From positions 1 through 64,000 of IMG/VR virus record IMGVR_UViG_3300029288_000054: a stretch of 64,000 nt of DNA; one strand, given 5' to 3'. This document shows positions 3,413 to 16,230 of the stretch, piece after piece. This stretch comes from a virus (lineage: Duplodnaviria > Heunggongvirae > Uroviricota > Caudoviricetes). Each line of letters starts with the position of its first letter. Within the stretch, counting starts at the first letter, position 1. A program made the position numbers and the translations under genes. Below the pieces are notes generated by a model. That model had not been told where the DNA came from. It did not search any database and was given only the letters and a program-made list of their open reading frames with translations.

Positions 3413-4009
3413 ATGATCGAGCTAACTGATTACCAGAAAGATCTTCTCAAGCAGCTTGAAACGAGCGGACTAAAGCTCACAATCGAGCCAATTGAAACCG
3501 GCACCAGCAAGTCTGATCTCAAGCGGCGATTGCTTGAGTTGGCTGAAAGTGGAGCAGAGAGGCCAGGGACGTCGGAAGAGAAGAAACGACGGTTGCTTGA
3601 GTTGGCTGAAAGCGGAACAAAAAGACCAGAAAAATCGGATAAATTAGGCATAGCACTGACCAGATATTGCAGTGGCGGCTGCTACGACTATAGCTTCGAT
3701 AAGTTGATCCGTGGTTTGCGTCCAGACTGGTTTATTCCTACAGCTACATCAACTAAGGCCGAGCTATTGAAGTTAGCTGAGAGTGGCGCATCACGCCCGA
3801 GTAGCAGTGCATGGGCCAAGTATCAAGAGAATCCTTTACCTTCTGGGACTGTTGAGGAAGCAGAACACGTGGAGGACGTCTATGATGCCGCTATCAGAGA
3901 ACAGCGTCTTGGTCGTGCGTTGATTAACTACACAAACAAGAGTCGCAAGACGTACGATGCAGAATTTGACGCGAAGGTTCGTGCATTACGCCCAGATTGG
4001 TTCAATTGA
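3413..4009 (+). CDS. stand-alone protein made of ~2.5 copies of the repeat found in the adjacent helicase
   Basis: LLELAESG.KRP...LG..L..Y...YD..FD..IR.LRPDWF repeats; GGAG RBS before ATG 3413. Confidence 0.8.
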   Translation: MIELTDYQKDLLKQLETSGLKLTIEPIETGTSKSDLKRRLLELAESGAERPGTSEEKKRRLLELAESGTKRPEKSDKLGIALTRYCSGGCYDYSFDKLIRGLRPDWFIPTATSTKAELLKLAESGASRPSSSAWAKYQENPLPSGTVEEAEHVEDVYDAAIREQRLGRALINYTNKSRKTYDAEFDAKVRALRPDWFN

Positions 4010-7000
4010 TGCTAACTATAAATCCAACTATCACTGTTCGAAGCAATATTCTTGCTGGTAAGATTGTAACGCAATCTGTTATCTTGGATGAGAAGGCAGA
4101 CAGATCCAAGATAGTTCTGCGTCAATATCAATGTGGTATGATCAACCACATGAAGCAGAATCGACTTACATTAGTTGAATCGCCAACCGGTAGTGGCAAA
4201 ACCAACGTAATGCTTTCCTATACTGCTTTCGTCAGGCAGCACAAAAAAGTCGTCATTATCACGCCGCAACTCGGTATCAACCACAATTTCACCAAATACA
4301 CCAAAGGCTGTCACTGGTGTGCTATTGAAAAAGATGAAGAAGGAAGGGAAATAACACGATATACCTTATGCAAGAATAGTATCAGACAAGATGCAATGCA
4401 AAAATCTGAGTCTATGAAACTCTTCTTGAATAGTGTCAAGGGAACAATCCGTGTTTCGAGTTATAAAGCATTCGATCTAGCTCTTGATGATGAGACTATT
4501 GATTTATCTGATGTCGTCTTACTTGTCGATGAAGTCCATCATAGTGATGTGAAGGATGAGAACTTACTTGGTTCGATTATTAGAAGGTGTGTTGATAGAT
4601 GTGCTGAGGTCCACGCCTTCACAGCTACCGACTTTCGCAGTGATGGCGGTCAACCAACACCAGAAGAGTTTAGTCGATTTCGACGACTTCTGAAAGAGCA
4701 TTACCAAGAAGGTTGCTGCCCTGATTTCGATGTAGCTGTTCGATTTTATCACGCTGTGAATAAGTCTGACTTCGATCGATTGGCTGCAACTGAGGATATA
4801 TCAAATAAGCCTGATTTGTTGGATGCTATGAATTATCCTGAGTTGTTGAAGGCATACGTCGACGAATACAAAAGGAGCCCTTTGCCGACAATTATGTATG
4901 TTGATGGTGCTAAACAGGCATTCGATTTGCAAAAAATCCTATTTAATAAATGTAAAGGCGTCAGGATACTCAATTTTGGATCTGATGACGGAGAAACTCT
5001 CGTCTCTAATGTGAAGAAGATGCGTACAGCTAAGCTTGACGCACTCGCTGACGCGCCCAGGTGCTATGATGTTGTTATAGCGATTAAGTTATTTGACGAA
5101 GGCATGGATTGGGTTGAATGTGCTCAGACATTCAATCCACGGCTCACCGGGTCTCTACAGCGGTTTGTCCAGCGATGTATTGGTCGTGCTCTGCGACACA
5201 AAACAAACCCGAAGCATCTATCACCCAATCTCTCTAGGGTTGTAATCTTCGAAGTAAGTCTGGCTGATGAAGATCAAGATGTTGTTAAATATGCCACTCT
5301 ACAGGTGGTTATCAGAATTAAGGCTATTTGCAGTGGTTTGGACTTCACTGATACGTTTACATTGGTTTTACCGCAACGACATCGTGCTGAGGTCGATAAA
5401 GAAAGAGCACGATTTAGGCTGCAGATAAATTCGCTGCAGAATAATGAAATCATACAGCGAATTCTGCGTGCGTCTACTGTTCCTGGAACATCTTCTGATG
5501 AATTAATCAAAATGTTTCACCAACTCTGTGCCAAGCAGGGCTTCGCAATAACTCCGATTTTTGCCATCAGCTTATTGATGCAATGTGATGTCATTGATAA
5601 GAATGACCGCATTGCATTGGAAGAGATCATCCGTAAGCGCGATAGACGCCTTAGTAAATTATCGTTTAGCGAGTTCATGAATGACCCAGAAATCAAGGAA
5701 GCAATCAAGAAACTGAAAGTGATCGGCGTCACAGATTACTTTCAAGTCATTAATGGTATGGATGGTACTGATGAGGTCGAGAGATTATTGATCCGACTCA
5801 ACGCGAACTCAATGAGAGAGAACAAGAAGAAGTTTATAGAGTCGGCAAAGAACGGAGGAAAAAGACCAAAGAAGCGTTCAAAAGATCCCGAGGAGAAGCG
5901 TCTAGGTGGGGTATTCGATAGTTATACGAGGGAAAGCCAAAGAACATACGATCCAGAATTTACTGACGAGATCCGTAAAATAGCTCCACTCTGGCTTGAA
6001 AATCCGACAGCCATGAGAAAACAAAAGTTGTTGGAGATAGCAAAGGGCGGAGCCGAAAGACCGAGCAAACGTTCAAAAAACCTAGCGGAGAGATGTTTTG
6101 GCTTGGCGCTCTGTACTTATACAAATCGGAATGGTCGATCGTACGATCAGGTCTTTGATAAACAGATTCGTGCTCTTCGACCAGAGTGGTTTGTAGATAC
6201 GAAAGCACTGACCAAGGCAAAATTGCTGGCATTAGCTAGTAGTGGTGGTGAAAGACCTATACAACCGACAAAACTAGCGGACAGACTATCTTCATATACA
6301 CGTGAGAATAGTGGCTGCTACGATCAGGAATTCGTTGCTAAGATTCGTGCTATTCGCCCAGAATGGCTCATTCCCAATATAGATCTGAATAAGGATAAAC
6401 TACTAGAACTGGCAGCAAACGGTGCAAAGAAGCCTAGGACCACTAGCAAGCTTGGGGCCGCGTTTTTTAGATATACCAACAAGAATATCAACACATATGA
6501 TCCTGTTTTTGCTGAGAAGATTCGTGCTACCTGTCCTGATTGGCTCGTTAACAGTAAAGATCTAAAGAAAGACAAATTGCTAGAACTGGCAACAAACGGT
6601 GCGAATAGGCCCAACCAATGCTCGAAGAATCGAGAAGAAAAATTGTTGGGAAGCGCGTTGTCTGCCTATACCAACGCCAAAGGCTCTAAACGCGATCCAG
6701 TTTTCAATAAGGAAATTCGTACTCTTCGCCCAGATTGGTTTGAGCCGTTGGTGTCGAATAAAACTGAATTGCTTGATATGGCCAAGAATGGAGGGAAAAG
6801 ACCACGTGGTGAATCTAGAGACCCAAAAGAAAGATTATGGGCTGGAAGGCTATTCAAGTATTTGGTAGATGATCCGTCTTTCAGTGAGCAGATTCATGCT
6901 CTCCGTCCAGATTGGTTCTGCCGTACTATAGCCAGCACTACAGCAAACAAGCAAGTATTATTAGAGTTGGCAGAGAGTAGAGATAATAAGCCGTCTTTTG

Positions 7001-7953
7001 TGTTAAATGACTCAGCAGAAAAGCGATTGGCACGTCTTTTCTATTGTTATACTAACGAGAACTCTAAAGCATATGATCCGATTCTTGCTGAGAAAATCCG
7101 CACTCTTCGTCCGAAATGGTTCATCCATAATGCAGATCTAGACAGGTCTAAATTGTTAGAATTAGCAAAAAGTGGCGCAAAGAAGCCAAGTACCTTCTCA
7201 AAAGACCCAGAAGAGAAGCGATTGGGAAATACATTATATAGATGCACCACTAAAGGTGCTGACTATAATTCTGACTTTAATAAGGAGATTCGTGCCCTCC
7301 GTCCCGACTGGTTCGCATATAAGAAGAGAATCAGGCGTGGCAAATATGCTGGCCGTAATGAATATCGTGAATTCTTGGTCAAGGCTCTGAAATATTACGG
7401 TATTACTTCTTTCTCTGGCTGCGAATTCTGGACTCTCGGCGGCAGAGAATGGTATGAGTACAAGCACCTTGTCGATGCCGGTATCGAACTAAAATGCAAT
7501 TCTTACCACAATGTCGACAAGGGAACAATCGATAAGGCACCAGAAGGAGCCTGTGCTCACTCCAATCGCGAATTCTTGACTATCCACAAGTTATGGAAAC
7601 GATGGCAGAATCCACGTGTCATAAGCTACGACGCGACCATCGGGATGGTTGAATCAAGAACAGAATACTGGCAGGAGTTGTGTTATCTTGCTATCGCTGC
7701 CGCCAAGAAATCAGGATGCATACTGTTCTCATGGAACTTCTTGGAAGGCTACGCACATTCTTCATATGAGCCGATTGCAAAGGGCGTTTATAAGCAATGG
7801 CTGCAATCGTTGAAGGGATTTGCCGAATCGGAAGGACTACAGATCGATTTCTATGCTGATGGGCAGATTACTAAACGCCCAACATCCCAAACACCTATGC
7901 TCGCTGGATGCTGTAAGTTGGTTAAGGTTGGCTTGGCATTGAAAGTTGGTTGA
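4009..7953 (+). CDS. superfamily 2 (DExH) helicase/ATPase with 8 C-terminal ~60-aa repeats and an extra C-terminal domain
   Basis: LRQYQ Q-motif, SPTGSGKT Walker A, LVDEVHH Walker B, FTAT motif III, LFDEGMD motif V, QRCIGRALR motif VI; TGATG coupling to the upstream gene. Confidence 0.85.
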   Translation: MLTINPTITVRSNILAGKIVTQSVILDEKADRSKIVLRQYQCGMINHMKQNRLTLVESPTGSGKTNVMLSYTAFVRQHKKVVIITPQLGINHNFTKYTKGCHWCAIEKDEEGREITRYTLCKNSIRQDAMQKSESMKLFLNSVKGTIRVSSYKAFDLALDDETIDLSDVVLLVDEVHHSDVKDENLLGSIIRRCVDRCAEVHAFTATDFRSDGGQPTPEEFSRFRRLLKEHYQEGCCPDFDVAVRFYHAVNKSDFDRLAATEDISNKPDLLDAMNYPELLKAYVDEYKRSPLPTIMYVDGAKQAFDLQKILFNKCKGVRILNFGSDDGETLVSNVKKMRTAKLDALADAPRCYDVVIAIKLFDEGMDWVECAQTFNPRLTGSLQRFVQRCIGRALRHKTNPKHLSPNLSRVVIFEVSLADEDQDVVKYATLQVVIRIKAICSGLDFTDTFTLVLPQRHRAEVDKERARFRLQINSLQNNEIIQRILRASTVPGTSSDELIKMFHQLCAKQGFAITPIFAISLLMQCDVIDKNDRIALEEIIRKRDRRLSKLSFSEFMNDPEIKEAIKKLKVIGVTDYFQVINGMDGTDEVERLLIRLNANSMRENKKKFIESAKNGGKRPKKRSKDPEEKRLGGVFDSYTRESQRTYDPEFTDEIRKIAPLWLENPTAMRKQKLLEIAKGGAERPSKRSKNLAERCFGLALCTYTNRNGRSYDQVFDKQIRALRPEWFVDTKALTKAKLLALASSGGERPIQPTKLADRLSSYTRENSGCYDQEFVAKIRAIRPEWLIPNIDLNKDKLLELAANGAKKPRTTSKLGAAFFRYTNKNINTYDPVFAEKIRATCPDWLVNSKDLKKDKLLELATNGANRPNQCSKNREEKLLGSALSAYTNAKGSKRDPVFNKEIRTLRPDWFEPLVSNKTELLDMAKNGGKRPRGESRDPKERLWAGRLFKYLVDDPSFSEQIHALRPDWFCRTIASTTANKQVLLELAESRDNKPSFVLNDSAEKRLARLFYCYTNENSKAYDPILAEKIRTLRPKWFIHNADLDRSKLLELAKSGAKKPSTFSKDPEEKRLGNTLYRCTTKGADYNSDFNKEIRALRPDWFAYKKRIRRGKYAGRNEYREFLVKALKYYGITSFSGCEFWTLGGREWYEYKHLVDAGIELKCNSYHNVDKGTIDKAPEGACAHSNREFLTIHKLWKRWQNPRVISYDATIGMVESRTEYWQELCYLAIAAAKKSGCILFSWNFLEGYAHSSYEPIAKGVYKQWLQSLKGFAESEGLQIDFYADGQITKRPTSQTPMLAGCCKLVKVGLALKVG

Positions 7954-8143: not shown

Positions 8144-8173
8144 GTTAACTGTGTTATTGAGTCGTGCTATAAC
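8144..8173 (+). promoter_or_regulatory. putative promoter of the RAMP-like gene
   Basis: GTTAAC-18nt-TATAAC with CGTGC; imperfect palindrome TCCGTGAAT/ATTTACGGA at 8123-8140 just upstream. Confidence 0.6.
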
Positions 8174-8223: not shown

Positions 8224-8904
8224 ATGGTTAAGCTTATCGAAGCTATTGTGTACGATTTCCGGCTTACTGGTGTCACACCGTTATTGATGCATGCTGACAG
8301 CATCGACGGATGCGATGAACTCGAAGCGTGGCGCAAAGAGCCACGTCATAAAGGTGTCAGCAAAGCTGGCGATGATCGGTCCCCCCCGTGGACCTGGATC
8401 GTGCATGTTTGCAACGACGGCACGAACATCGCATTGCCATGGGATTACCTCTCGAAGTGCTGCTGTGTTGCCGGCGCAAAACTGATTGTCAAGGGAAGGA
8501 CGACGTTCAAGTCGGCCACCCAAAGCGGCATTCGTTGGAACGACCAGTTCTACGACTTCCTTGTGGCTGGCAAGCAGGTGGCGATGGCGGATATCTGGAA
8601 GCTGCGGGAAGATGATCTGACGTTTGCGGAACAGAAGAAAGCTGTTCGTGAAATGGGCTTCGATCTGTTCGTGAAACGCGCTAGGGTCGGTCAGAGCAAG
8701 CACATCCGCGTTCGTGCCAAGTTCGACAAGTGGGAGGTTCGCGGCAAGTTCTGTGTTTCGATGCCAGAATTGACTGCAGATGTGCTGCAGCAGATCCTTT
8801 CCATTGCTGGTCAGAATGCCGGTCTCGGCGATTGGCGTCCTGGTGCACCTTCGTCGCCCGGACCCTACGGCATGTTTACTGCCGAGGTAGCCAAGGTGAA
8901 GTAG
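8224..8904 (+). CDS. stand-alone RAMP/Cas7-like RNA-binding protein (putative Vipr-like effector)
   Basis: N-terminal strand YDFRLTGVTPLLMH, IALPWDYLSKC helix motif and C-terminal glycine-rich loop AGLGDWRPGAPSSPGPYGMF follow the RAMP pattern; directly precedes the repeat array. Confidence 0.7.
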   Translation: MVKLIEAIVYDFRLTGVTPLLMHADSIDGCDELEAWRKEPRHKGVSKAGDDRSPPWTWIVHVCNDGTNIALPWDYLSKCCCVAGAKLIVKGRTTFKSATQSGIRWNDQFYDFLVAGKQVAMADIWKLREDDLTFAEQKKAVREMGFDLFVKRARVGQSKHIRVRAKFDKWEVRGKFCVSMPELTADVLQQILSIAGQNAGLGDWRPGAPSSPGPYGMFTAEVAKVK

Positions 8905-8914
8905 TTGACCTGTT

Positions 8915-8952
8915 TTGGCTGGGGCCATTGCTGGCCCCAGCCAATTGTTTTT
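8915..8952 (+). terminator. 13-bp stem-loop with T-rich tail between the RAMP gene and the array
   Basis: TTGGCTGGGGCCA-TTGC-TGGCCCCAGCCAA followed by TTGTTTTT. Confidence 0.7.
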
Positions 8953-10010
8953 GTGCGGTAGGCACGTTTACGAATCAAGAGAAATGTGGTCAGGCAGGGC
9001 TGGGCGAGGCACGGTACGGTGCGGCAGGCAAGGCTCGGCTCGGTTGGGTCAGGTAAGGTCTGGGTGCCAATGGCACATTTACAAATCAAAGAGTGATGAG
9101 GTCAGGTATGGTCGGGTTGTGTACGGTTAGGTCAGGTGTGACAGGGTGTGGTCGGGCAGGGTCTGGGTGCCAATGGCACATTTACAAATCAAGAGGAATG
9201 TTCGGCTGGGTAGGGTCTGGTCAGGTGTAGCTTGGTCGGGTCAGGCTCGGTAGCGTACGGTCAGGCTAGGTTTGGTGCGGTAAGGTTTGGGTGCCAATGG
9301 CACATTTACAAATCAAGAGTGACGTGGCAAGGTAAGGTTAGGTGCGGTAGCGTCCGGCAAGGTCTGGTGTTGTAAGGTTAGGATGGGTCAGGTAGGGGTG
9401 CCAATGGCACATTTACAAATCAAGAGTGACGGTTTGGCGGAGCAAGGTTCGGCGGGGCTCGGCGGGTACGGTGTGGTTGGGTTCGCTAGGGCTTGGTATG
9501 GCTAGGTACGGTAAGGTAGGGGTGCCAATGGCACATTTAAATCAAGAGGAATGTGGTGTGGTGCAGTACGGCGGTGCTCGGTTAGGTTCGGTAAGGTTCG
9601 GTCAGGTGAGGTGTAGTAGGGCTTGGTAAGGTAATGTGCGGCGGGGTTCGGCTGGGTCGGGTGAGGGTGCCAATGGCACATTTACAAATCAAGAGGAATG
9701 TTCGGCTGGGTATGGTGCGGTAGAGTAGGGCTTGGCAGGGTAAATGTGTGGCTGGGCTTGGTTGGGTCGGGTGAGGGTGCCAATGGCACATTTACAAATC
9801 AAGTGAAAGCGGTGAGGTCTGCCAAGGTCGGGTCTAGCGAGGTCAGGCCGGGTACGGTCGGGTACGGTGTGGTAAGGTTTGGGTGCCAATGGCACATTTA
9901 CAAATCAAGAGGAATGGTTGTGTCGGCCAGGGTCTGGTCGGGAGGGTGGCGTCGGGCAGGGCTAGGCCCGGTCGGGCAGGGTATGGTAGGGGTGCCAATG
10001 GCACTTTACA
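8953..10010 (+). ncRNA. array of nine putative guide-RNA units: (GGY-NN)13-22 tracts each closed by a ~31-nt hairpin repeat
   Basis: repeat GGGTGCCAATGGCACATTTACAAATCAAGAG at 9062, 9165, 9289, 9396, 9520, 9665, 9775, 9881, 9990 (last truncated) plus a degenerate copy at 8953; intervening tracts are 5-nt periodic GGYNN; RNA function is inferred. Confidence 0.8.
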
Positions 10011-10026
10011 TTCATTAACTGGAGAT

Positions 10027-10548
10027 ATGATGAGCTATATGTTTAAACCGAATCCAGAATCGCGTGCTGCAGTTGAACGATTGATGGCTCTGGCAGCAAA
10101 CAGAGATCGCGGCGAAGTCATGCAATGGCAGGAACTTGAGCGAGCCAGCGGTATTGGCCGTTATCAATTGATGCGCGAAAACGGGACTGCGAACGGTGCC
10201 TACATTATGAAACGCTTTCACGACAGGATGTTGGAAGAGCGTGGTATCGAGATTTGGCCTGAACGCGAAATCGGTGTTCGATTGCTTTCGGGCCACGAGC
10301 AGGCGACGTTGCCATTCAAGCATCGATGCAAACGGGCACGTAGGCAATTTAGGAAGTCTCTAAAGACAATGAATTTTCTGAATCGCGACCCGAAAGTCAG
10401 CCTTAGCATTATAGATGCTAGGCTGGTCGCTATGCAGCTTGAAATGGCAACGCAGAACATCGAGATTTTGAATCATCAATTGCGTGACGTTAACAAGAAT
10501 CCGCCCGGCTCCGAGAGTATCGACAGACCACCACCAGCCACAATGTAA
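10027..10548 (+). CDS. array-associated protein, predicted winged-helix N-terminus plus helical C-terminus
   Basis: GGAG RBS then ATG 10027 right after the last repeat; RGEVMQWQELERASG...RGIEIWPEREIGVRLL resembles a wHTH; the 9883 start in the track lies inside the array. Confidence 0.7.
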   Translation: MMSYMFKPNPESRAAVERLMALAANRDRGEVMQWQELERASGIGRYQLMRENGTANGAYIMKRFHDRMLEERGIEIWPEREIGVRLLSGHEQATLPFKHRCKRARRQFRKSLKTMNFLNRDPKVSLSIIDARLVAMQLEMATQNIEILNHQLRDVNKNPPGSESIDRPPPATM

Positions 10549-10571: not shown

Positions 10572-10601
10572 GTTAACTAGGCGGCTGAGTGATGCTATAA
10601 T
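10572..10601 (+). promoter_or_regulatory. putative promoter (shared consensus)
   Basis: GTTAAC-18nt-TATAAT; ATCAGTTAACT identical to the copy at 8140. Confidence 0.6.
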
Positions 10602-10635
10602 TAGTTGCTTGGCTCGTATCTATCTGGAGCTCTAT

Positions 10636-11901
10636 ATGGAAGATCAATACCTCTCGCGTCACGAATTAGCTGCATTTCTTGGTGTTTCGGTGCGGTCGGT
10701 TGACAGGAGGGCTTCCGATGGTGGCCTTCCAGAACCGATTTGGTTGGGCTCACCAAACGGAAAGAAATCTCGCAGGTGGCGAAAATCTGCTATTGTTGCT
10801 AAGTTGGAATCAACAAATAGCCCGGTGTCGGTACCGGTATCAATACAACAGCCGATGCAGCAAGTATCGGCACAGCCAGCGTTACCCACAACCAAAGGTC
10901 CTATCATGATTCAGACTTCCGACTTCACCACGATGATCCCAAACTCCAGATCGCTGCTACACAAGGGTGATAATGTTGGTCCGAAGTATCGCGAGATAGG
11001 AGGCAGTACCGATCTGTTGAAGAAAACAGAAGTTGTTCTCACAAGAGAGAAGGCTGCAGAATTTCTGAAGTTTAAGGAGTTCATTGCGGAACGGTCGCTC
11101 AAGACGCAGCATGTCGCTGATTTACAGAAGCAGATGGTTCGTGGTCTATTCAGACCGGAGCTCGTCATGTTGTCGACGGCATATTGTCAAGAGGACAAGC
11201 AAACCTATCGTTTGAATGGCCAACATTGTTGTTGGGCTGTCTTCAATCTTCCGTCTAATTTCAATCCGGAGTATAAGATCAATCTGCTGCATTACAGATG
11301 TAAAACGCTTGATGACGTCCGTATCTTGTATAGCACGATTGACCGAAACCTTGCTCGGTCACCTATGACGGTTGTCAACTCGATTCTTTTCGGTAGGCCG
11401 GGATATGAGAAATACAGCCAACAAGTATTAAGTTTGGTCGTCGCTGGATTCTCTACGTGGAAGTGGGAATCGTACAATGAACGGGTCAAGTTCGATACTG
11501 ATGCTAAGTGTCATATCATGGACACTGAGTATCACCAACTAACTCATCAAGTCATGGATTTCTGTCATGAACATGTCCTGAATAGACGACATTTAAAGCG
11601 AGCATCCGTGGCCGCTGCAATGTTTGAGACGTTTCAAAAATGCGCGGCTGATGCCAGTCGTTTTTGGGAATCTGTTGCAACTGGTGTCGGATTCGAAAGT
11701 CGAAAAGATCCTCGCCTAAAGTTGAAGGAATACCTCGACCAAAATTGGGTTTGTATGCGGGGCGGCAGCGATACATCGAAGAAAGCCGTAGGGCAAGAAG
11801 AGATGTATCGCAAGTGTATAAAGGCTTGGGATAAATTTCGTAGCGGTGAAGAATGTTCTTGCCTTGTATTGAAATCCAAAAGTCGGCAGAGGGCTAAGTG
11901 A
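10636..11901 (+). CDS. AlpA/excisionase-like HTH fused to a ParB/Srx-like domain
   Basis: YLSRHELAAFLGVSVRSVDRRASDGGLPEPI...RRWRKS is an AlpA-type HTH; ERSLKTQHVADLQKQM...RLNGQHCCWA...YSTID resembles the ParB-N DGQHR family; GGAG RBS. Confidence 0.7.
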   Translation: MEDQYLSRHELAAFLGVSVRSVDRRASDGGLPEPIWLGSPNGKKSRRWRKSAIVAKLESTNSPVSVPVSIQQPMQQVSAQPALPTTKGPIMIQTSDFTTMIPNSRSLLHKGDNVGPKYREIGGSTDLLKKTEVVLTREKAAEFLKFKEFIAERSLKTQHVADLQKQMVRGLFRPELVMLSTAYCQEDKQTYRLNGQHCCWAVFNLPSNFNPEYKINLLHYRCKTLDDVRILYSTIDRNLARSPMTVVNSILFGRPGYEKYSQQVLSLVVAGFSTWKWESYNERVKFDTDAKCHIMDTEYHQLTHQVMDFCHEHVLNRRHLKRASVAAAMFETFQKCAADASRFWESVATGVGFESRKDPRLKLKEYLDQNWVCMRGGSDTSKKAVGQEEMYRKCIKAWDKFRSGEECSCLVLKSKSRQRAK

Positions 11902-12530
11902 TTATGAGCCTTATTGAAGAGTTGCAGCCGTTTCCATATGAACAGTACAAAGGAATTGTACTTGATCCACTGGTCATCTATGCAATCAACGAGATCGCTG
12001 AGAGGGGTATTGATCCTTCATTCGAGAACATTGTAGCGGCTTCATATTTATTATTTCCGAGGAAGTTCTCGCTGCAGGGTTACCCTACATTTCCGGATGC
12101 CCTTAGAGTTGATCACGTATTGCGGCGCAGCATCTACAAGACACGCAGATGGCTTCGAGGAAAATCCAAACAAGGTTTTACGCTGACCGACGTTGGATAC
12201 AAAATCCTACGAGAGGTCAAGGAAGCTTTGTCGGTAGCACCCAAATCATCTAAAGAGTATTCACATACACGGCGATACGACAGACTTCTTGCTGAAGTTA
12301 GGCGGTCGTCGGCATTCGTCAAATATCAGCAAGGTGATCAAGAATCAATTACAGCATCTGATTGTTGCTATGCTTTGCAGTGTACTCTTGACTCTGATTC
12401 GCACATTCGTATTACTAATTTGCGGCAACTTCGCACAATCGCAGCAGATCTCGAACAGAATGATATTATAATATTCTTGGATTGGCTTGGTGATCGATTT
12501 GATCATATCATCAAAGGATACGCTCGATGA
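11898..12530 (+). CDS. winged-helix-like hypothetical protein
   Basis: SFENIVAASYLLFPRKFSLQGYPTFPD...GFTLTDVG wHTH-like pattern; coupled to both neighbours. Confidence 0.6.
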   Translation: MIMSLIEELQPFPYEQYKGIVLDPLVIYAINEIAERGIDPSFENIVAASYLLFPRKFSLQGYPTFPDALRVDHVLRRSIYKTRRWLRGKSKQGFTLTDVGYKILREVKEALSVAPKSSKEYSHTRRYDRLLAEVRRSSAFVKYQQGDQESITASDCCYALQCTLDSDSHIRITNLRQLRTIAADLEQNDIIIFLDWLGDRFDHIIKGYAR

Positions 12531-14761
12531 GAACATTCACTATTACTGCGGACCCACGTTTGGTGGCTCGTCGCGTTAAGACCGCCATCCAGGGGGACGT
12601 TATAAAAGCCTTAGCCGAACTTATCACCAACTGCGATGATAGCTATCGGATTCTGGAAGGCGATAACGTTCCCGTGAACGGTAATATCGATGTCGTCTAC
12701 CACAAACAAGGGCGGTTTGCTTGTCGGTTCGCTGTGAGAGATAATGCTGCTGGTATGTCGTACGATGAATTATCTCGTAGCTTTGAATTTTATGGCTCTT
12801 CGACCAGCGGTTTCAAGAGCGGCAAATCTGTGACAGGGTTCTTCGGTACCGGTGCCAAGAACGCACTTGCAGCAATGATTGGTGGCCGTATGTGCACTTT
12901 TAAAGACGGCATCTTCACCGAATGCCGTATCTTTTTTAAGGATGATGTTCTATCTGGTGAGATTGACGATGCGCGACCAGCAACAGCCGCGCTTCGATTA
13001 GAACACGGCATAGATGGAAACGGAACAATAGCCTATTTCATGGCTGATCCTGATAAGGGCTTGAAGGTGCCGCAGTTCGATACCGTCTTCTCGTCTCTTG
13101 CAAATAGCTGGCGGTTGCGTAAGATAATGTCTAATCGCAAGAGGCGTGTAACTCTCGTTAATGCTGGTGATAAGAATCGAAAGCGTCATTTGAGTTATGG
13201 TATATTAAGGGGTATTGAGGTAGCAAACTTACCTATCACAACCGCTGTTGACGGATATGGCGAATTCAATGCTCACGTGATTCTATATCGTGCTGGCGAT
13301 GAACTTTCACAAAGTGGGGAGGAGCGGCAAGGTGGCCTGCTTATTGTCGACGACGCCCAATCTGTTCTGGATATTTCATTATTCAAGTACGACAACGAGC
13401 CATTGGCATCACATTTATTCGGCGAACTAGTCATTCACGGTTTCCGTGAATTGATGGAACGTGAAGAGCCCATTCTTAAAGAAGAACGCGATGGTATAAA
13501 TCATAGCCATCCTGTGTGTGCTGCAATCATTGATGAAGTTGAGCAGCGCATTGGCCGTGCAGTCAGAGAAGAGGAACAACGTCGTCGGCAATCGCAGGTA
13601 AAGCCAGATTCTGCGGAAACCAAGCGTTATATGGCCGGAATAAACGTATTAAATGCGATTGCAGAGGCAGAGATCGAAGATATTGTCGATTTAGGGCAGA
13701 AATTGAATAGAAAGGACGAGACTAGACCAGAAAGTATGGACTTGTTGCCGTCATCAGCACATGTTTCTATCGGGAAGCAATGCGTACTTTATGTCTTCAT
13801 CAATACAAAAGTCATCCCACCCGGAACACGTGTAGCCATAACGTGTACAAACAAACTACAAATTGTAGGCAAGGAGGCTTTCGTAGTTTCGAAACCAAGA
13901 AGTGACACAAAAGTAAAAAATCTTTCCATATGCCACGTGACAGTTAAGGCGTTTGAACTTGGTGAAGCCGTTTTGACCGTGGAATGCGGCGATTACTCTT
14001 CGAGCTCTACTATTTATATCGATCCAGAGAAAGAAGAAAAGGAGTTGTTATATAGTGAAGGTCTCATCTTTCGACCGCAGCATCTATCAGTACGGCTGAA
14101 CAAGGTGAGAGAATCATCTTTGCTTATTTATACTCCAGTAGTCACTGATGGCATCAAAGTACGTATCAGAGTTGAAGGCGACGATAGCGAAAACGTCTTC
14201 GTATCGCCAGAAGAGATTGAGGTAATAGCAAGCGATGCCAAGAAGGACGTTATCGAGCACAAGGTTGAAGTCTGGGGCGACAGTATTGGTGCCAAAGCAC
14301 TTATCGTTGCTGAGACGGAATTCGAGCAAGTTGCCTTACTTGAAGTTTGTGTTCGCGAATCTGTAGAGGATGAAAAGAATCGAGGGAAAGGGATGTTCAA
14401 CAAACCTTCCTTCGACTTGTCTGAGCAGGACCCAAGCCAAAGGACGTCCTACAGCAAAGAGACTGGGCAAGTGATTATATATGGTAACTTTCCGTCTGTT
14501 CGGCATTATCTCGGTAAAGATTGCCGATTCAATAAAACGCTTGCCGGGCAGGTGTTGATTGCTGATATGGTTGCTGAACGATGTTTCTTTGAGATCGCAA
14601 GGGCCAAGGTTGATCGCGGCGTTGCACTGGGTAGTGGAGAACAGAGGGTTGAGAAGATTAGAGGTATTGCTGAGATGTTATCTAAGAAATACGGCCACAC
14701 AATTCACGCGCAGATGGTTGACAACGATCTGATCGATGCCGACCGTTCGCAAACCGATTAA
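12527..14761 (+). CDS. GHKL-family (HATPase_c, MORC/Hsp90-like) ATPase with beta-rich C-terminal domains
   Basis: Bergerat motifs ELITNCDDS, VRDNAAGMS, GFFGTGAK, GNGT. Confidence 0.8.
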   Translation: MRTFTITADPRLVARRVKTAIQGDVIKALAELITNCDDSYRILEGDNVPVNGNIDVVYHKQGRFACRFAVRDNAAGMSYDELSRSFEFYGSSTSGFKSGKSVTGFFGTGAKNALAAMIGGRMCTFKDGIFTECRIFFKDDVLSGEIDDARPATAALRLEHGIDGNGTIAYFMADPDKGLKVPQFDTVFSSLANSWRLRKIMSNRKRRVTLVNAGDKNRKRHLSYGILRGIEVANLPITTAVDGYGEFNAHVILYRAGDELSQSGEERQGGLLIVDDAQSVLDISLFKYDNEPLASHLFGELVIHGFRELMEREEPILKEERDGINHSHPVCAAIIDEVEQRIGRAVREEEQRRRQSQVKPDSAETKRYMAGINVLNAIAEAEIEDIVDLGQKLNRKDETRPESMDLLPSSAHVSIGKQCVLYVFINTKVIPPGTRVAITCTNKLQIVGKEAFVVSKPRSDTKVKNLSICHVTVKAFELGEAVLTVECGDYSSSSTIYIDPEKEEKELLYSEGLIFRPQHLSVRLNKVRESSLLIYTPVVTDGIKVRIRVEGDDSENVFVSPEEIEVIASDAKKDVIEHKVEVWGDSIGAKALIVAETEFEQVALLEVCVRESVEDEKNRGKGMFNKPSFDLSEQDPSQRTSYSKETGQVIIYGNFPSVRHYLGKDCRFNKTLAGQVLIADMVAERCFFEIARAKVDRGVALGSGEQRVEKIRGIAEMLSKKYGHTIHAQMVDNDLIDADRSQTD

Positions 14762-14800
14762 TAGGTATTTTAGTACTAACCATCACTACAGGAGAATGTC

Positions 14801-15403
14801 ATGAAGGGTTGTCTTTGGGCTGCGTTGGGCCTTGTGGGTGTTGTACTACTGGTCGTCGTCATCGCCGGATTGTCATGGTGGGGCTGCTATAGCACCCTCA
14901 ACGTCGGGAACCATACGGCGGAAGAGAAACTCGCCAATGTCGGGTCCGCTCTCCAGCGACGGCTCGATCTCATCCCCAACCTCGTCAGTGTTGTGAAGGG
15001 ATATGCGAAGCACGAGCATGATACGTTCGCAGACGTTACTAATGCTCGTGCGAAAGTCGGACAAATCAATATTAACGCGGCTTCCGCTGATCCTGCTCAG
15101 ATGAAGAAGTTCGCAGAAGCCCAAGGCGATTTATCTTCGGCCTTATCTCGCTTGATGGTGGTGCAGGAGAAGTATCCGGAATTGAAGGCTAACGAGAACT
15201 TCAAAGATCTCCAATCACAGCTTGAAGGAACCGAGAATCGTATCAAGGAAGAGCGGGACCGCTATAATAAAGCAGTCAAAGAACAGAATATCGCCATCGA
15301 CGGTCTGTTCTCCGGTATAGTTGCCAATTGCCACGGCTTCAAGAAATGGGCTAGCTTCGAAGCGGTCGAAGCTGCGAAGACAGCACCGAAAGTGGAGTTC
15401 TAA
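14801..15403 (+). CDS. lemA: LemA family protein
   Basis: N-terminal TM; LQRRLDLIPNLVSVVKGYAKHE, EKYPELKANENFKDLQSQLEGTENRI signatures. Confidence 0.95.
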   Translation: MKGCLWAALGLVGVVLLVVVIAGLSWWGCYSTLNVGNHTAEEKLANVGSALQRRLDLIPNLVSVVKGYAKHEHDTFADVTNARAKVGQININAASADPAQMKKFAEAQGDLSSALSRLMVVQEKYPELKANENFKDLQSQLEGTENRIKEERDRYNKAVKEQNIAIDGLFSGIVANCHGFKKWASFEAVEAAKTAPKVEF

Positions 15404-15408
15404 CGAAC

Positions 15409-16230
15409 ATGAAACGCAAACAGGGTTTTACGCTCGTTGAATTGCTTGTAGTCGTCGCCATCATCGGTATTCTCGTTGCGATGGTGATTCCGGCGATTCA
15501 GAAAGCGCGTGCCGCTGCATCTACACCGACGCTGCGCGGGCCGGTGAATGATGATGCCAAAATCCTCACAGCCACGCAAGTAGAGAATCTAAGCGACATT
15601 CTGTTGAAGTTCGAAAAGGCAACAACGAATCAAGTTGTTGTTCTCACGATACCGACTTTGAATGGTCGTGATATCAGCGAGTTTGCTGTCGAGACGGCAA
15701 AAAGTTGGAAACTTGGTCAAAAGGACAAGGACAACGGCGTATTGTTCGTCGTAGCCTTCAAAGAACACAAAACCTGGATCACTACAGGTCGCGGCATAGG
15801 CGATAAGCTTACTGATGTCGATTGCCGTCGTATTCTTGCTGACAAGGTGAAGCCAGCGTTCAAAGCTGGTGATTATGCCGCTGGTATCTATGCCGCGATT
15901 ACCGCCATTGAAGTTAAGCTGTCCGGGAAAGCCGAAGCAGTCGACGCCAAGGCACTTGGAGCAGCAGGAGTTGCTGCGGCTGGAGCAGGGGCCGTAGCAG
16001 TCAGTTTTTGGCTTACTGGCTGGGGCATTGCTACGATCATACTTATAGTGATCGTCGTCTTAATTCTCGTCGCCATAATGGCGTCCAACAGCGGCAGCGG
16101 TGTTGGCGGCGGTATTTGTAGTGTGATCGGCGATATTGCTGATAGTGGAGGCAGTAGTAGCAGTGATAGTAGCAGTTACTCTGGCGGCGGTGGCGATTTT
16201 GGTGGCGGTGGGGCTGGTGGTGATTGGTAA
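15409..16230 (+). CDS. TPM-domain (YgcG-like) membrane protein with a prepilin-type N-terminal cleavage/methylation motif
   Basis: MKRKQG|FTLVELLVVVAIIGILVAM; VNDDAKILT...WKLGQKDKDNGVLF...FKAGDYAAGI; TM helix; SGGGGDFGGGGAGGDW tail. Confidence 0.9.
   Translation: MKRKQGFTLVELLVVVAIIGILVAMVIPAIQKARAAASTPTLRGPVNDDAKILTATQVENLSDILLKFEKATTNQVVVLTIPTLNGRDISEFAVETAKSWKLGQKDKDNGVLFVVAFKEHKTWITTGRGIGDKLTDVDCRRILADKVKPAFKAGDYAAGIYAAITAIEVKLSGKAEAVDAKALGAAGVAAAGAGAVAVSFWLTGWGIATIILIVIVVLILVAIMASNSGSGVGGGICSVIGDIADSGGSSSSDSSSYSGGGGDFGGGGAGGDW

What the first reader, a model, noticed from the sequence alone, without database searches (positions are those of the whole stretch)
8224..10548. Candidate minimal RNA-guided system: lone RAMP/Cas7-like gene, GGY-NN repeat array and wHTH-like gene
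Seen: a 226-aa gene with its own promoter is followed by a ~1.06-kb G-rich non-coding array of nine units, then a 173-aa gene whose RBS directly follows the last repeat. No cas1/2/3/5/6/8/10 gene or nuclease is recognisable in the window. Established: the beta1 TPL-x-H motif and C-terminal G-rich loop (GLGDWRP...GPYG-x-F) are hallmarks of RAMP proteins, and Cas7-type RAMPs polymerise along a guide RNA with fixed periodicity. Inference: one subunit binds each 5-nt GGY-NN unit, GGY is the scaffold, and the NN bases are displayed to read a target. Lacking a nuclease, the complex would likely act by binding or transcriptional repression, for example against competing phages or host genes. From memory this matches the recently reported viral VIPR-type architecture, which I cannot verify here. 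Standard CRISPR finders would probably miss or misread it.
Basis: partly seen in the sequence, partly recalled or inferred. Interest (0 to 1): 0.97.

Follow-up and report, generated by a model that had tools for sequence, protein, structure and literature searches.

The report
VIPR guide-RNA system in a jumbo phage
This 388-kb phage carries a complete VIPR system: one small Cas7-like protein, nine guide RNAs built from five-base GGY-NN repeats, and a small accessory gene. VIPR is an RNA-guided DNA-silencing system first described in 2026 preprints, so this is a clear new example of a known kind, not a new kind.

Summary
Window 8224-8904 encodes a Vipr protein. It matches the solved 'SUSP1 Vipr protein' by sequence (profile E 4.5e-15), folds as a RAMP closest to Csm3/Cas7, and keeps all five residues that read the GG of each repeat.

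The 1.1-kb spacer holds nine guide RNAs (vrRNAs). Each has 14-23 YNNGG pentamers followed by an invariant tail of about 30 nt that starts with a 5-bp hairpin. 103 of 150 pentamers fit YNNGG, against 13 +/- 3.4 in shuffles. Gene 10030-10548 is a homologue of vap1, the SUSP1-clade accessory gene (hhalign 96.5%).

In 78 of 80 viral contigs with a homologue, same-strand YNNGG tracts flank the gene, and none lies on the other strand. 73 of the 80 also carry the vap-like gene.

Features particular to this locus:
- the host genome is a jumbo phage;
- there are 12 guides, nine here plus an orphan three-guide array at 218 kb with its own promoter;
- the tail is a plain hairpin rather than the published pseudoknot;
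- several guides have register slips;
- a terminator-like hairpin lies between vipr and the array.

No natural target was found. The kind is in print (bioRxiv 10.64898/2026.04.26.720920, .720927, 2026.10.15.759431), and this scan has already noted VIPR loci in at least 73 other genomes.

The parts
8145..8173 (+). Putative promoter of vipr: -35-like TTAACT, a 17-nt spacer, and an extended -10 TGCTATAAC
   Evidence: Motif TGCTATAAY occurs 65 times in the 388-kb genome against about 7 expected, usually with TTAA about 17 nt upstream. The same class precedes the gene after vap (10593) and the orphan array at 218,241. Consensus match only; not shown to fire.
8224..8904 (+). vipr: 226-aa Vipr protein, a minimal Cas7-like RAMP
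   Evidence: PDB sequence hit to 36pp 'SUSP1 Vipr protein': E 3.3e-6 for the single sequence and 4.5e-15 for the family profile. AF2 pLDDT 95.2, pTM 0.89. Foldseek top hits are Csm3/Cas7. H23, R164, D203, W204 and R205 align with SUSP1 H17, R138, D177, W178 and R179. 534 representative homologues. It is the only copy in the genome.
8915..8954 (+). Terminator-like hairpin (13-bp stem, 9 G-C pairs) plus a T-run, between vipr and the array
   Evidence: In many relatives the first tract starts within a few bases of the vipr stop codon, so this element is particular to this locus. Its effect on array transcription is unknown.
8947..8983 (+). Degenerate leader copy of the tail/linker block, ending in ...ACGAATCAAGAG
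   Evidence: 22 of 30 positions match the tail block; family D6.
8984..9093 (+). vrRNA A1: 16 pentamers, the 7 next to the tail in register and a -1 slip upstream, plus the tail
9097..9196 (+). vrRNA A2: 14 pentamers plus the tail
9201..9320 (+). vrRNA A3: 18 pentamers plus the tail
9323..9427 (+). vrRNA A4: 15 pentamers plus the tail
9432..9549 (+). vrRNA A5: 18 pentamers with a -1 slip 11 units from the tail, plus a tail that has a 2-nt deletion
9552..9696 (+). vrRNA A6: 23 pentamers plus the tail
9697..9806 (+). vrRNA A7: 16 pentamers with a +1 slip 6 units from the tail, plus the tail
9808..9912 (+). vrRNA A8: 15 pentamers plus the tail
9917..10019 (+). vrRNA A9: 15 pentamers with slips in the 5' part, plus a variant last tail (same hairpin, different 3' extension) that runs into the RBS of the next gene
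10030..10548 (+). vap1-family accessory gene (172 aa, or 173 aa from ATG 10027), with no promoter of its own
   Evidence: Profile of 42 homologues against the gene next to vipr in Escherichia phage tootiki (SUSP1 clade): hhalign probability 96.5%, E 8.3e-10; pairwise BLASTP E 0.005. Found beside vipr in 73 of 80 related viral loci. Single copy in the genome. No Pfam, PADLOC or PDB family.

Best explanation
The locus is a complete VIPR (Viral Interference Programmable Repeat) system of a 388-kb jumbo phage, most like the published type II (vipr plus vap1).

Proposed working, with shown and inferred steps marked:
1. vipr is transcribed from a phage promoter (inferred from a consensus match). Some transcription reads through the terminator-like hairpin into the array and vap, which have no promoter of their own (inferred).
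2. The primary transcript is cut in the conserved linker after each tail into nine vrRNAs of about 100-145 nt (inferred; the nuclease is unknown).
3. Vipr protomers coat each vrRNA, one per pentamer. H23, R164, D203 and W204 hold the two flipped-out guanines and R205 helps hold the pyrimidine, which leaves the NN bases exposed. Conservation of these residues is shown here; their function is taken from the SUSP1 cryo-EM work.
4. The 3' hairpin tail caps the filament. DNA pairing starts at the tail-proximal units and spreads 3' to 5' (by analogy).
5. The NN dinucleotides pair with double-stranded DNA and skip every third target base. The bound filament blocks transcription of the target (by analogy; no nuclease is encoded in the locus).
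6. The targets are most likely genes of competing mobile elements in the same host, such as satellites, prophages or rival phages (by analogy; no target was found here).
7. A second array of three guides with the same tail, at genome 217.9-218.2 kb and with its own promoter, feeds the same single Vipr protein.
For: Protein. Sequence homology to the solved SUSP1 Vipr and 21.5% identity over 98% of the length to the Vipr of phage tootiki. RAMP fold with a G-rich loop between the last helix and last strand. The five GG/Y-reading residues are present and kept in 61-69 of 70 family members, matching the roles given in 10.64898/2026.04.26.720927.

RNA. Nine tandem units of YNNGG tracts plus an invariant tail, about 27 sd above shuffles. 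The period of 5 is incompatible with coding. The hairpin tail is supported by covariation in relatives: 32 of 32 distinct CCAAYGG cores that follow a tract have all three outer stem pairs intact, using 12 different stems.

Linkage. 78 of 80 homologue loci from IMG/VR carry same-strand tracts directly flanking the gene and none carries one on the opposite strand. 73 of 80 carry the vap-like gene, which is homologous to SUSP1-clade vap1.

Context. The record is a virus genome, 99% complete, with no Cas1. No guide matches the phage's own genome above shuffled-guide controls under the 1-nt skip rule, as the paper reports for other VIPRs.
Against: Nothing here shows transcription, processing, RNA binding or silencing. 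All mechanistic steps are carried over from a Vipr that is only about 21% identical.

A strong terminator-like hairpin lies between vipr and the array, and no promoter was recognised for the array.

Seven of the twelve guides carry slips of -1 or +1 nt in the pentamer register (12 slips among 160 unit steps). A slip would break a strict filament of one protomer per 5 nt.

The tail is a plain 5-bp hairpin with a 3-nt loop. It cannot form the pseudoknot described for SUSP1.

The paper's type (I-VII) could not be assigned, because its tree and tables are not held.
Confidence: 0.9

Rival explanations
1. The system is a decaying or partly silenced VIPR. The genes are intact, but the main array is insulated from the vipr promoter by an acquired terminator and is accumulating register slips. 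Only the orphan array at 218 kb, which has its own promoter, would then be expressed.
For: Terminator-like hairpin with 13 pairs plus a T-run at 8915-8954, and no recognisable promoter before the array. Relatives lack this gap. There are 12 register slips in the 12 guides.
Against: All nine tails are identical or nearly so, and the GGY scaffold is kept in 69% of units while NN is free. This pattern indicates ongoing selection. vap has only an RBS directly after the last tail, so it must be transcribed through the array. The orphan array also has slips. [quoted passage not shown]
Confidence: 0.08
2. The guides serve the phage's own gene regulation or act on the host chromosome, for example host shut-off or decoy sites, rather than on competing mobile elements.
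For: No competitor target was found in any collection. The 2026 follow-up paper shows that some solo vrRNAs point to host repetitive elements. The host genome is unknown, so host sites could not be searched.
Against: Self-regulation is unlikely, because the best self-matches equal the shuffled-guide controls at 60-70% of NN. For the two characterised clades, most targets are satellites or prophages. The failure to find targets is weak evidence, because only exact sub-patterns could be searched.
Confidence: 0.1
3. The region is not a guide array at all. It would be a CRISPR-like array with odd spacers, a G-quadruplex or simple-sequence region, or a coding repeat.
For: A conserved repeat of about 36 nt with a palindrome, spaced 103-145 nt apart, looks superficially like a CRISPR array. 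The tract is G-rich at 41%.
Against: The 'spacers' are themselves strictly 5-nt periodic, with fixed GGY and free NN. No Cas1 or cas gene is present. A period of 5 cannot encode protein, and only short ORFs cross the region. The same arrangement travels with the Vipr gene in 78 of 80 unrelated contigs, always on its strand. No Rfam family matches, ribozymes included.
Confidence: 0.01

Closest known systems
Type II VIPR of Escherichia phage SUSP1 and relatives such as phage tootiki (bioRxiv 10.64898/2026.04.26.720920, 10.64898/2026.04.26.720927, 10.64898/2026.10.15.759431; PDB 36pp)
   Same: A small lone RAMP protein with the same GG-reading residues. A vap1-family accessory gene. vrRNAs made of YNNGG pentamers capped by an invariant structured 3' tail. 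Phage-encoded, with no nuclease and no cas genes. No self-targets.
   Different: The Vipr is only about 21% identical. The gene order is vipr, array, vap, rather than vipr, vap with guides outside. There are nine plus three guides against four. Tracts reach 23 units, against 9-16 published. The tail is a simple 5-bp hairpin with a 3-nt loop, not a pseudoknot. The host genome is a 388-kb jumbo phage, not an 88-kb Felixounavirus. Targets are unknown.
The uncultivated-virus clade of Vipr homologues in IMG/VR (loci L002-L081; up to 52% identical)
   Same: The same protein subfamily, the same vap-like gene, and the same hairpin tail class G-NNN-CC-AAY-GG-NNN-C with covarying stems. Tracts are on the vipr strand.
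   Different: Most relatives are contigs of 5-118 kb with 1-6 guides split before vipr, after vipr and after vap, and with the first tract abutting the vipr stop codon. Here all nine guides lie between vipr and vap, behind a terminator-like hairpin, and a second array lies 208 kb away.
Cas7-family RAMPs of class 1 CRISPR effectors (Csm3 of type III-A; Cas7 of type VII)
   Same: RRM-based RAMP fold with a G-rich loop (Foldseek probability 1.0, E 1e-4 to 1e-3, TM 0.4-0.54). In the published Vipr structures, subunits polymerise along a guide RNA and flip out bases at a fixed period.
   Different: Sequence identity is 7-16%. There is no CRISPR array, no Cas1, and no large or small subunit. The period is 5 nt with three guide bases sequestered, instead of 6 nt with one. 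The target is read with a gap at every third base.

Membership tests
VIPR system | Vipr protein homologous to characterised Vipr proteins | tested here: met
   phmmer against PDB: the only hit is 36pp 'SUSP1 Vipr protein', E 3.3e-6. The family profile gives E 4.5e-15. BLASTP to tootiki Vipr gives E 2e-11 over nearly the full length.
VIPR system | Minimal RAMP fold: single RRM core, glycine-rich loop, thumb | tested here: met
   AF2 model pLDDT 95.2. Best PDB matches are Csm3/Cas7 chains. The G-rich loop at 200-216 lies between helix 185-199 and strand 218-224. A beta-hairpin at 147-178 carries R164 at the thumb position. The thumb was identified by alignment, not by superposition on 36pp.
VIPR system | Residues that read G1, G2 and Y3 of the repeat (SUSP1 H17, R138, D177, W178, R179) | tested here: met
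   H23, R164, D203, W204 and R205 align with them and are kept in 61, 69, 62, 63 and 66 of 70 family members.
VIPR system | vrRNA genes: at least 4 tandem YNNGG units with conserved GGY and hypervariable NN, on the vipr strand beside the gene | tested here: met
   Nine tracts of 14-23 units. 103 of 150 units fit YNNGG against 13 +/- 3.4 in shuffles, and NN composition is near-uniform. The only other such tract in 388 kb is the orphan array.
VIPR system | Invariable, structured 3' tail capping each repeat tract | tested here: met
   The same block of about 30 nt follows all nine tracts. It has a 5-bp hairpin. Covariation in relatives: 32 of 32 tails are fully paired, with 12 different stems. 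It is not the SUSP1 pseudoknot.
VIPR system | Minimal locus: vipr plus a vap gene, no CRISPR array, no cas genes | tested here: met
   The vap1 homologue is at 10030-10548. No Cas1 in the genome. No PADLOC or Pfam cas hit in the locus. The neighbouring helicase and HTH genes are not conserved beside vipr in relatives.
VIPR system | No self-targeting by its own guides under the 1-nt skip rule | tested here: met
   The best self-matches reach 20-28 of 28-46 NN bases, the same as shuffled guides.
VIPR system | Natural DNA targets that fit the NNx (1-nt skip) code | tested here: inconclusive
   Twelve collection scans were made, 11 of them pattern scans, plus local scans. They gave one weak candidate for guide A2 and otherwise only chance-level hits.
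VIPR system | vrRNAs are expressed, processed and bound by Vipr, and the complex silences matching DNA | not testable with these tools
   Needs small-RNA sequencing, pull-down and reporter assays.
VIPR type II (paper's classification) | Placement in the type II clade of the paper's Vipr tree, with a vap1 accessory gene | tested here: inconclusive
   vap1 homology is met. The tree and type tables are not held, and identity to SUSP1 Vipr is only about 21%.
CRISPR-Cas class 1 | CRISPR array with contiguous unique spacers, plus an adaptation module (Cas1/Cas2) and a multi-protein effector | tested here: not met
   The 'spacers' are pentamer repeats. No Cas1. Only one RAMP gene in 388 kb.

The most novel reading that the evidence does not exclude
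This clade may use a distinct guide format. It has a plain hairpin cap instead of a pseudoknot. Its transcript units are long, up to 23 pentamers, and in seven of twelve cases are split by a 1-nt register slip into two in-phase blocks. Each unit might therefore yield two guides or one composite bipartite guide; this may be what the paper calls staggered arrays. A jumbo phage would distribute twelve such guides over two loci under separate promoter control, against competitors that have not yet been sequenced.
Probability: 0.15. Interest if true: 0.45.

Novelty: new member of a known kind. Interest (0 to 1): 0.3.

Why it matters
VIPR is a newly described route to programmable DNA recognition and a proposed ancestor of CRISPR effectors. 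All mechanistic work so far rests on two closely related systems. This locus adds a well-defined, distant example (about 21% identity) that still keeps every repeat-reading residue, which supports the generality of the GGY-NN code.

It also documents a large uncultivated-virus subfamily: 534 cluster representatives and 80 loci examined. The subfamily has a hairpin-capped guide, a vipr-array-vap gene order and frequent register slips, and here it sits in a jumbo phage with twelve guides. This material is useful for comparative work and for choosing new systems to test. It does not change the picture of what VIPR is.

Tried and rejected
1. Single-sequence AF2 fold of the protein: pLDDT 38.6, unusable. 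It was replaced by the alignment-based model.

2. DNA similarity to GenBank phages: no match for the locus or for 20 kb of neighbouring sequence. The phage has no close cultured relative, and the host could not be inferred.

3. Target search with the published 1-nt skip rule.
- Own genome at skips 0-3: nothing above shuffled guides, apart from the trivial self-hit at skip 3.
- 600 kb of related VIPR loci, to test whether the guides attack rival VIPRs: nothing.
- Exact sub-patterns of 9-11 tail-proximal units were scanned. Guides A2, A3 (twice), A4, A5, A6 and A8 went against IMG/VR, A3 and B1 against GTDB genomes, and B2 and A6 against JGI metagenomes.
- The A5 hits (AT-rich phages) and B1 hits (six unrelated MAGs) did not extend beyond the seeded units and are chance.
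- The A2 hit in IMGVR_UViG_3300024520_000289 has 11 consecutive perfect units (23 of 28 overall) inside a 1308-aa ORF. However, the skipped base falls on codon position 1 rather than the wobble position, no other guide matches that 34-kb contig, and I estimate that a chance seed hit would extend this far with probability of roughly 0.03-0.08. I do not claim it as a target.

4. Reading the guides as codons in both orientations, following a lead from earlier notes of this scan: I recognised no catalytic or family motif.

5. Rfam, including hammerhead ribozymes between guides: nothing.

6. The gene after the orphan array is not a vap homologue.

7. Pfam, PDB profile and ESM Atlas searches gave no fold or family name for vap.

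8. The paper's supplementary tables for type assignment are not held.

Full report
**What is there.** The window is the first 64 kb of a single-contig, 388,105-bp virus genome with 47% G+C, rated 99% complete by CheckV. An identical copy exists in an ENA metagenome assembly.

At 8224-8904 lies a 226-aa ORF. Before it are an AAAGG ribosome-binding site and a promoter-like site: TTAACT, 17 nt, then the extended -10 TGCTATAAC at 8165-8173. That -10 motif occurs 65 times in the genome against about 7 expected, usually with TTAA at -35, so it is probably a phage promoter class.

After the stop codon come a 13-bp G+C-rich hairpin with a T-run (8915-8954) and a degenerate copy of the repeat block (8947-8983). 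Nine units follow, reaching to about 10019. A second ORF starts at 10027 or 10030, directly behind a GGAG, and ends at 10548. A fresh promoter of the same class (10573-10601) then serves the next gene.

**The array.** Each unit ends in an invariant block that begins with the hairpin GTGCC-AAT-GGCAC and continues ATTTACAAATCAAGAG. There are nine copies, at 9064 to 9992. The fifth has a 2-nt deletion and the last has a different 3' extension.

Between the blocks lie 73-115 nt made of five-base units. Chunked backwards from the hairpin, 103 of 150 units fit YNNGG, against 13.0 +/- 3.4 in 2000 shuffles (maximum 24). Position 1 is a pyrimidine in 80% of units and positions 4 and 5 are G in 85% and 91%. 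Positions 2 and 3 use all four bases about equally. The G autocorrelation peaks at lags 5, 10, 15 and 20.

A period of five rules out coding. Tandem Repeats Finder sees only fragments, and no Rfam family, ribozymes included, matches. The one correction is that the nine 'units' are nine composite RNAs of 14-23 pentamers plus a tail.

**The protein.** Pfam and PADLOC are silent, and PHROGs gives only an unnamed family (phrog_4652, E 3e-13). Against PDB sequences the only hit is 36pp, 'SUSP1 Vipr protein' (E 3.3e-6). A profile of 70 family members raises this to E 4.5e-15.

An exhaustive search of 1.84 billion cluster representatives finds 534 relatives, the best at 51% identity. With that alignment AlphaFold2 gives pLDDT 95.2 and pTM 0.89. 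Without it the model was useless.

Foldseek against a PDB copy that ends before the Vipr structures were released returns Csm3 and other Cas7-type subunits of type III and type VII effectors (probability 1.0, E 1e-4 to 1e-3, TM up to 0.54).

The cryo-EM preprint assigns reading of the repeat as follows: G1 to H17 and D177, G2 to R138 and W178, and the pyrimidine partly to R179. In the alignments these correspond to H23, D203, R164, W204 and R205 of the window protein. They are kept in 61, 62, 69, 63 and 66 of 70 family members.

**Linkage in relatives.** A scan of IMG/VR with the family alignment returned 195 confirmed loci, of which 80 were kept. In 78 of the 80, tracts with at least 6 of 8 in-phase YNNGG units lie directly beside the gene, always on its strand and never on the other.

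The usual layout is guide(s), vipr, guide(s), a gene of about 170 aa, then guide(s). An iterated profile started from the window's second gene finds that gene in 73 of the 80 loci. It also finds the gene next to vipr in Escherichia phage tootiki, a Felixounavirus of the SUSP1 clade. A direct profile-to-sequence comparison gives hhalign probability 96.5%, E 8.3e-10, and the pairwise BLASTP E is 0.005.

The follow-up paper states that vipr and vap1 are adjacent in SUSP1-family phages. I therefore read 10030-10548 as a vap1-family gene. Its 'winged helix' nature is not shown here.

**The tail.** In relatives the tract is followed at once by a short hairpin, most often G-NNN-CC-AAY-GG-NNN-C. I took every distinct CCAAYGG core that follows a tract, without regard to pairing. 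All three outer stem pairs are intact in 32 of 32, using 12 different stems. Among the same cores that did not directly follow a well-formed tract, only 10 of 24 are fully paired. This is good covariation support for a conserved cap.

The 3-nt loop cannot make the pseudoknot seen in the SUSP1 tail, whose loop pairs with a downstream CUACC.

**Comparison with print.** Three bioRxiv papers of 2026 describe exactly this kind of system. The first reports a lone ancestral RAMP (Vipr), vrRNAs of 9-16 YNNGG repeats with a conserved 3' tail, an accessory vap gene and mostly viral genomes. It shows recognition of double-stranded DNA by the NN bases with one target base skipped per unit, transcriptional repression, and natural targets on satellites and prophages. 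The second reports the filament and R-loop-triplex structures, with assembly proceeding 3' to 5' from the tail. The third covers phage-satellite competition and orphan guides.

Every defining feature that can be checked from sequence is met here (see the membership table). What the locus does is therefore inferred by homology, as set out under the best explanation. Expression, processing, binding and silencing are untested.

**What is particular here.**
- The carrier is a jumbo phage.
- All nine guides lie between vipr and vap, behind a terminator-like hairpin. In many relatives the first tract starts within a few bases of the vipr stop codon.
- vap has only a ribosome-binding site after the last tail, so it must be transcribed through the array.
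- A genome-wide scan found exactly one further tract, at 217,892-218,225 on the minus strand. It holds three guides with the same tail, the last a variant. It starts 9 nt after a TGCTATAAC promoter, just downstream of tRNA-Met and tRNA-Thr, and is followed by an unrelated 101-aa gene.
- The genome has only one vipr and one vap, so both arrays must use the same protein.
- Seven of the twelve guides contain slips in the pentamer register: eight of -1 and four of +1 among 160 unit steps. One slip context, TCGGCGGGTACGG, is shared by A5 and B1, so it survived a duplication. The discovery paper mentions 'internal degeneracy' and 'staggered arrays with 1-nt overlaps'. Without the figures I cannot tell whether these are the same thing.
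- Tracts reach 23 units, longer than the published 9-16.

**Targets.** Using the published NNx rule, I found no match in the phage's own genome above shuffled-guide controls. This agrees with the reported absence of self-targeting. There was also no match in 600 kb of related VIPR loci.

The public collections can only be searched with exact patterns, so I used the 9-11 tail-proximal units of nine guides. Hits for A5 and B1 did not extend and are chance.

Guide A2 matches an IMG/VR contig with 60% G+C over 11 consecutive units (23 of 28 NN bases), inside a 1308-aa ORF. Three things count against it. The skipped base is codon position 1, not the wobble position. No other guide matches that 34-kb contig. 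A chance seed hit extending this far is not very rare, about 0.03-0.08 by my estimate. I record it as a lead only.

Reading the guides as codons gave no motif I could recognise. The biological target, and the host, remain unknown.

**Verdict.** This is a new and rather distant member of a kind that is already in print, and this scan has already noted it in at least 73 other genomes. It is a well-formed example with some clade-specific and locus-specific features worth recording, but it is not a new principle.

Noticed in passing
L001:2370-2745 (minus strand) = genome 217,870-218,245, outside the window: Orphan array of three vrRNAs (15, 22 and 17 pentamers). The first two have the same tail as the main array and the third has a variant hairpin, GTGTC-TAT-GACAC. 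The array starts 9 nt after a TGCTATAAC promoter, directly downstream of tRNA-Met and tRNA-Thr. An unrelated 101-aa gene follows it. There is no second vipr or vap in the genome.
   Followed up: partly
whole genome; in the window at 45, 2160, 3352, 8165, 10593, 22144, 49539 (+) and 23931 (-): Extended -10 motif TGCTATAAY, usually with TTAA about 17 nt upstream. It occurs 65 times against about 7 expected and clusters at 148-196 kb. It is probably a phage promoter class that uses the host sigma-70 holoenzyme.
   Followed up: partly
window 8915-8954: Strong terminator-like hairpin between vipr and the guide array. In many relatives the first tract starts within a few bases of the vipr stop codon. 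It may set the protein-to-guide ratio or mark an RNA 3' end.
   Followed up: no
window 8984-9991 and L001 array: Register slips of -1 (8) and +1 (4) nt inside seven of the twelve guides. They leave tail-proximal in-phase runs of 4-11 units in the slipped guides. One slip context (TCGGCGGGTACGG) is shared by guides A5 and B1. How a filament with one protomer per 5 nt copes with a slip is unexplained.
   Followed up: partly
L084:8665-8706 (minus), IMGVR_UViG_3300024520_000289: Guide A2 matches 11 consecutive NNx units (23 of 28 overall) inside a 1308-aa ORF of a 34-kb viral contig with 60% G+C. The skip base is on codon position 1 and no other guide matches. This is probably chance, but it is the only candidate target found.
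   Followed up: yes
window 3997-7953: 1318-aa protein with an N-terminal ResIII/DEAD helicase domain. By eye, about ten tandem repeats of about 65 aa follow it (recurring ...RP...YT...YD..F...IR..RP.WF). It lies just upstream of vipr but is not conserved beside vipr in relatives.
   Followed up: no
window 10609-16230: Genes downstream of the locus: a 430-aa protein with an HTH_17-like N-terminus (weak Pfam match, below the gathering cut-off) that also matches phrog_5931; a 744-aa protein with a weak GHKL-ATPase N-terminus; then LemA and a TPM-domain protein that carries a prepilin-type N-terminal methylation motif. The last two are unusual cargo for a phage.
   Followed up: no
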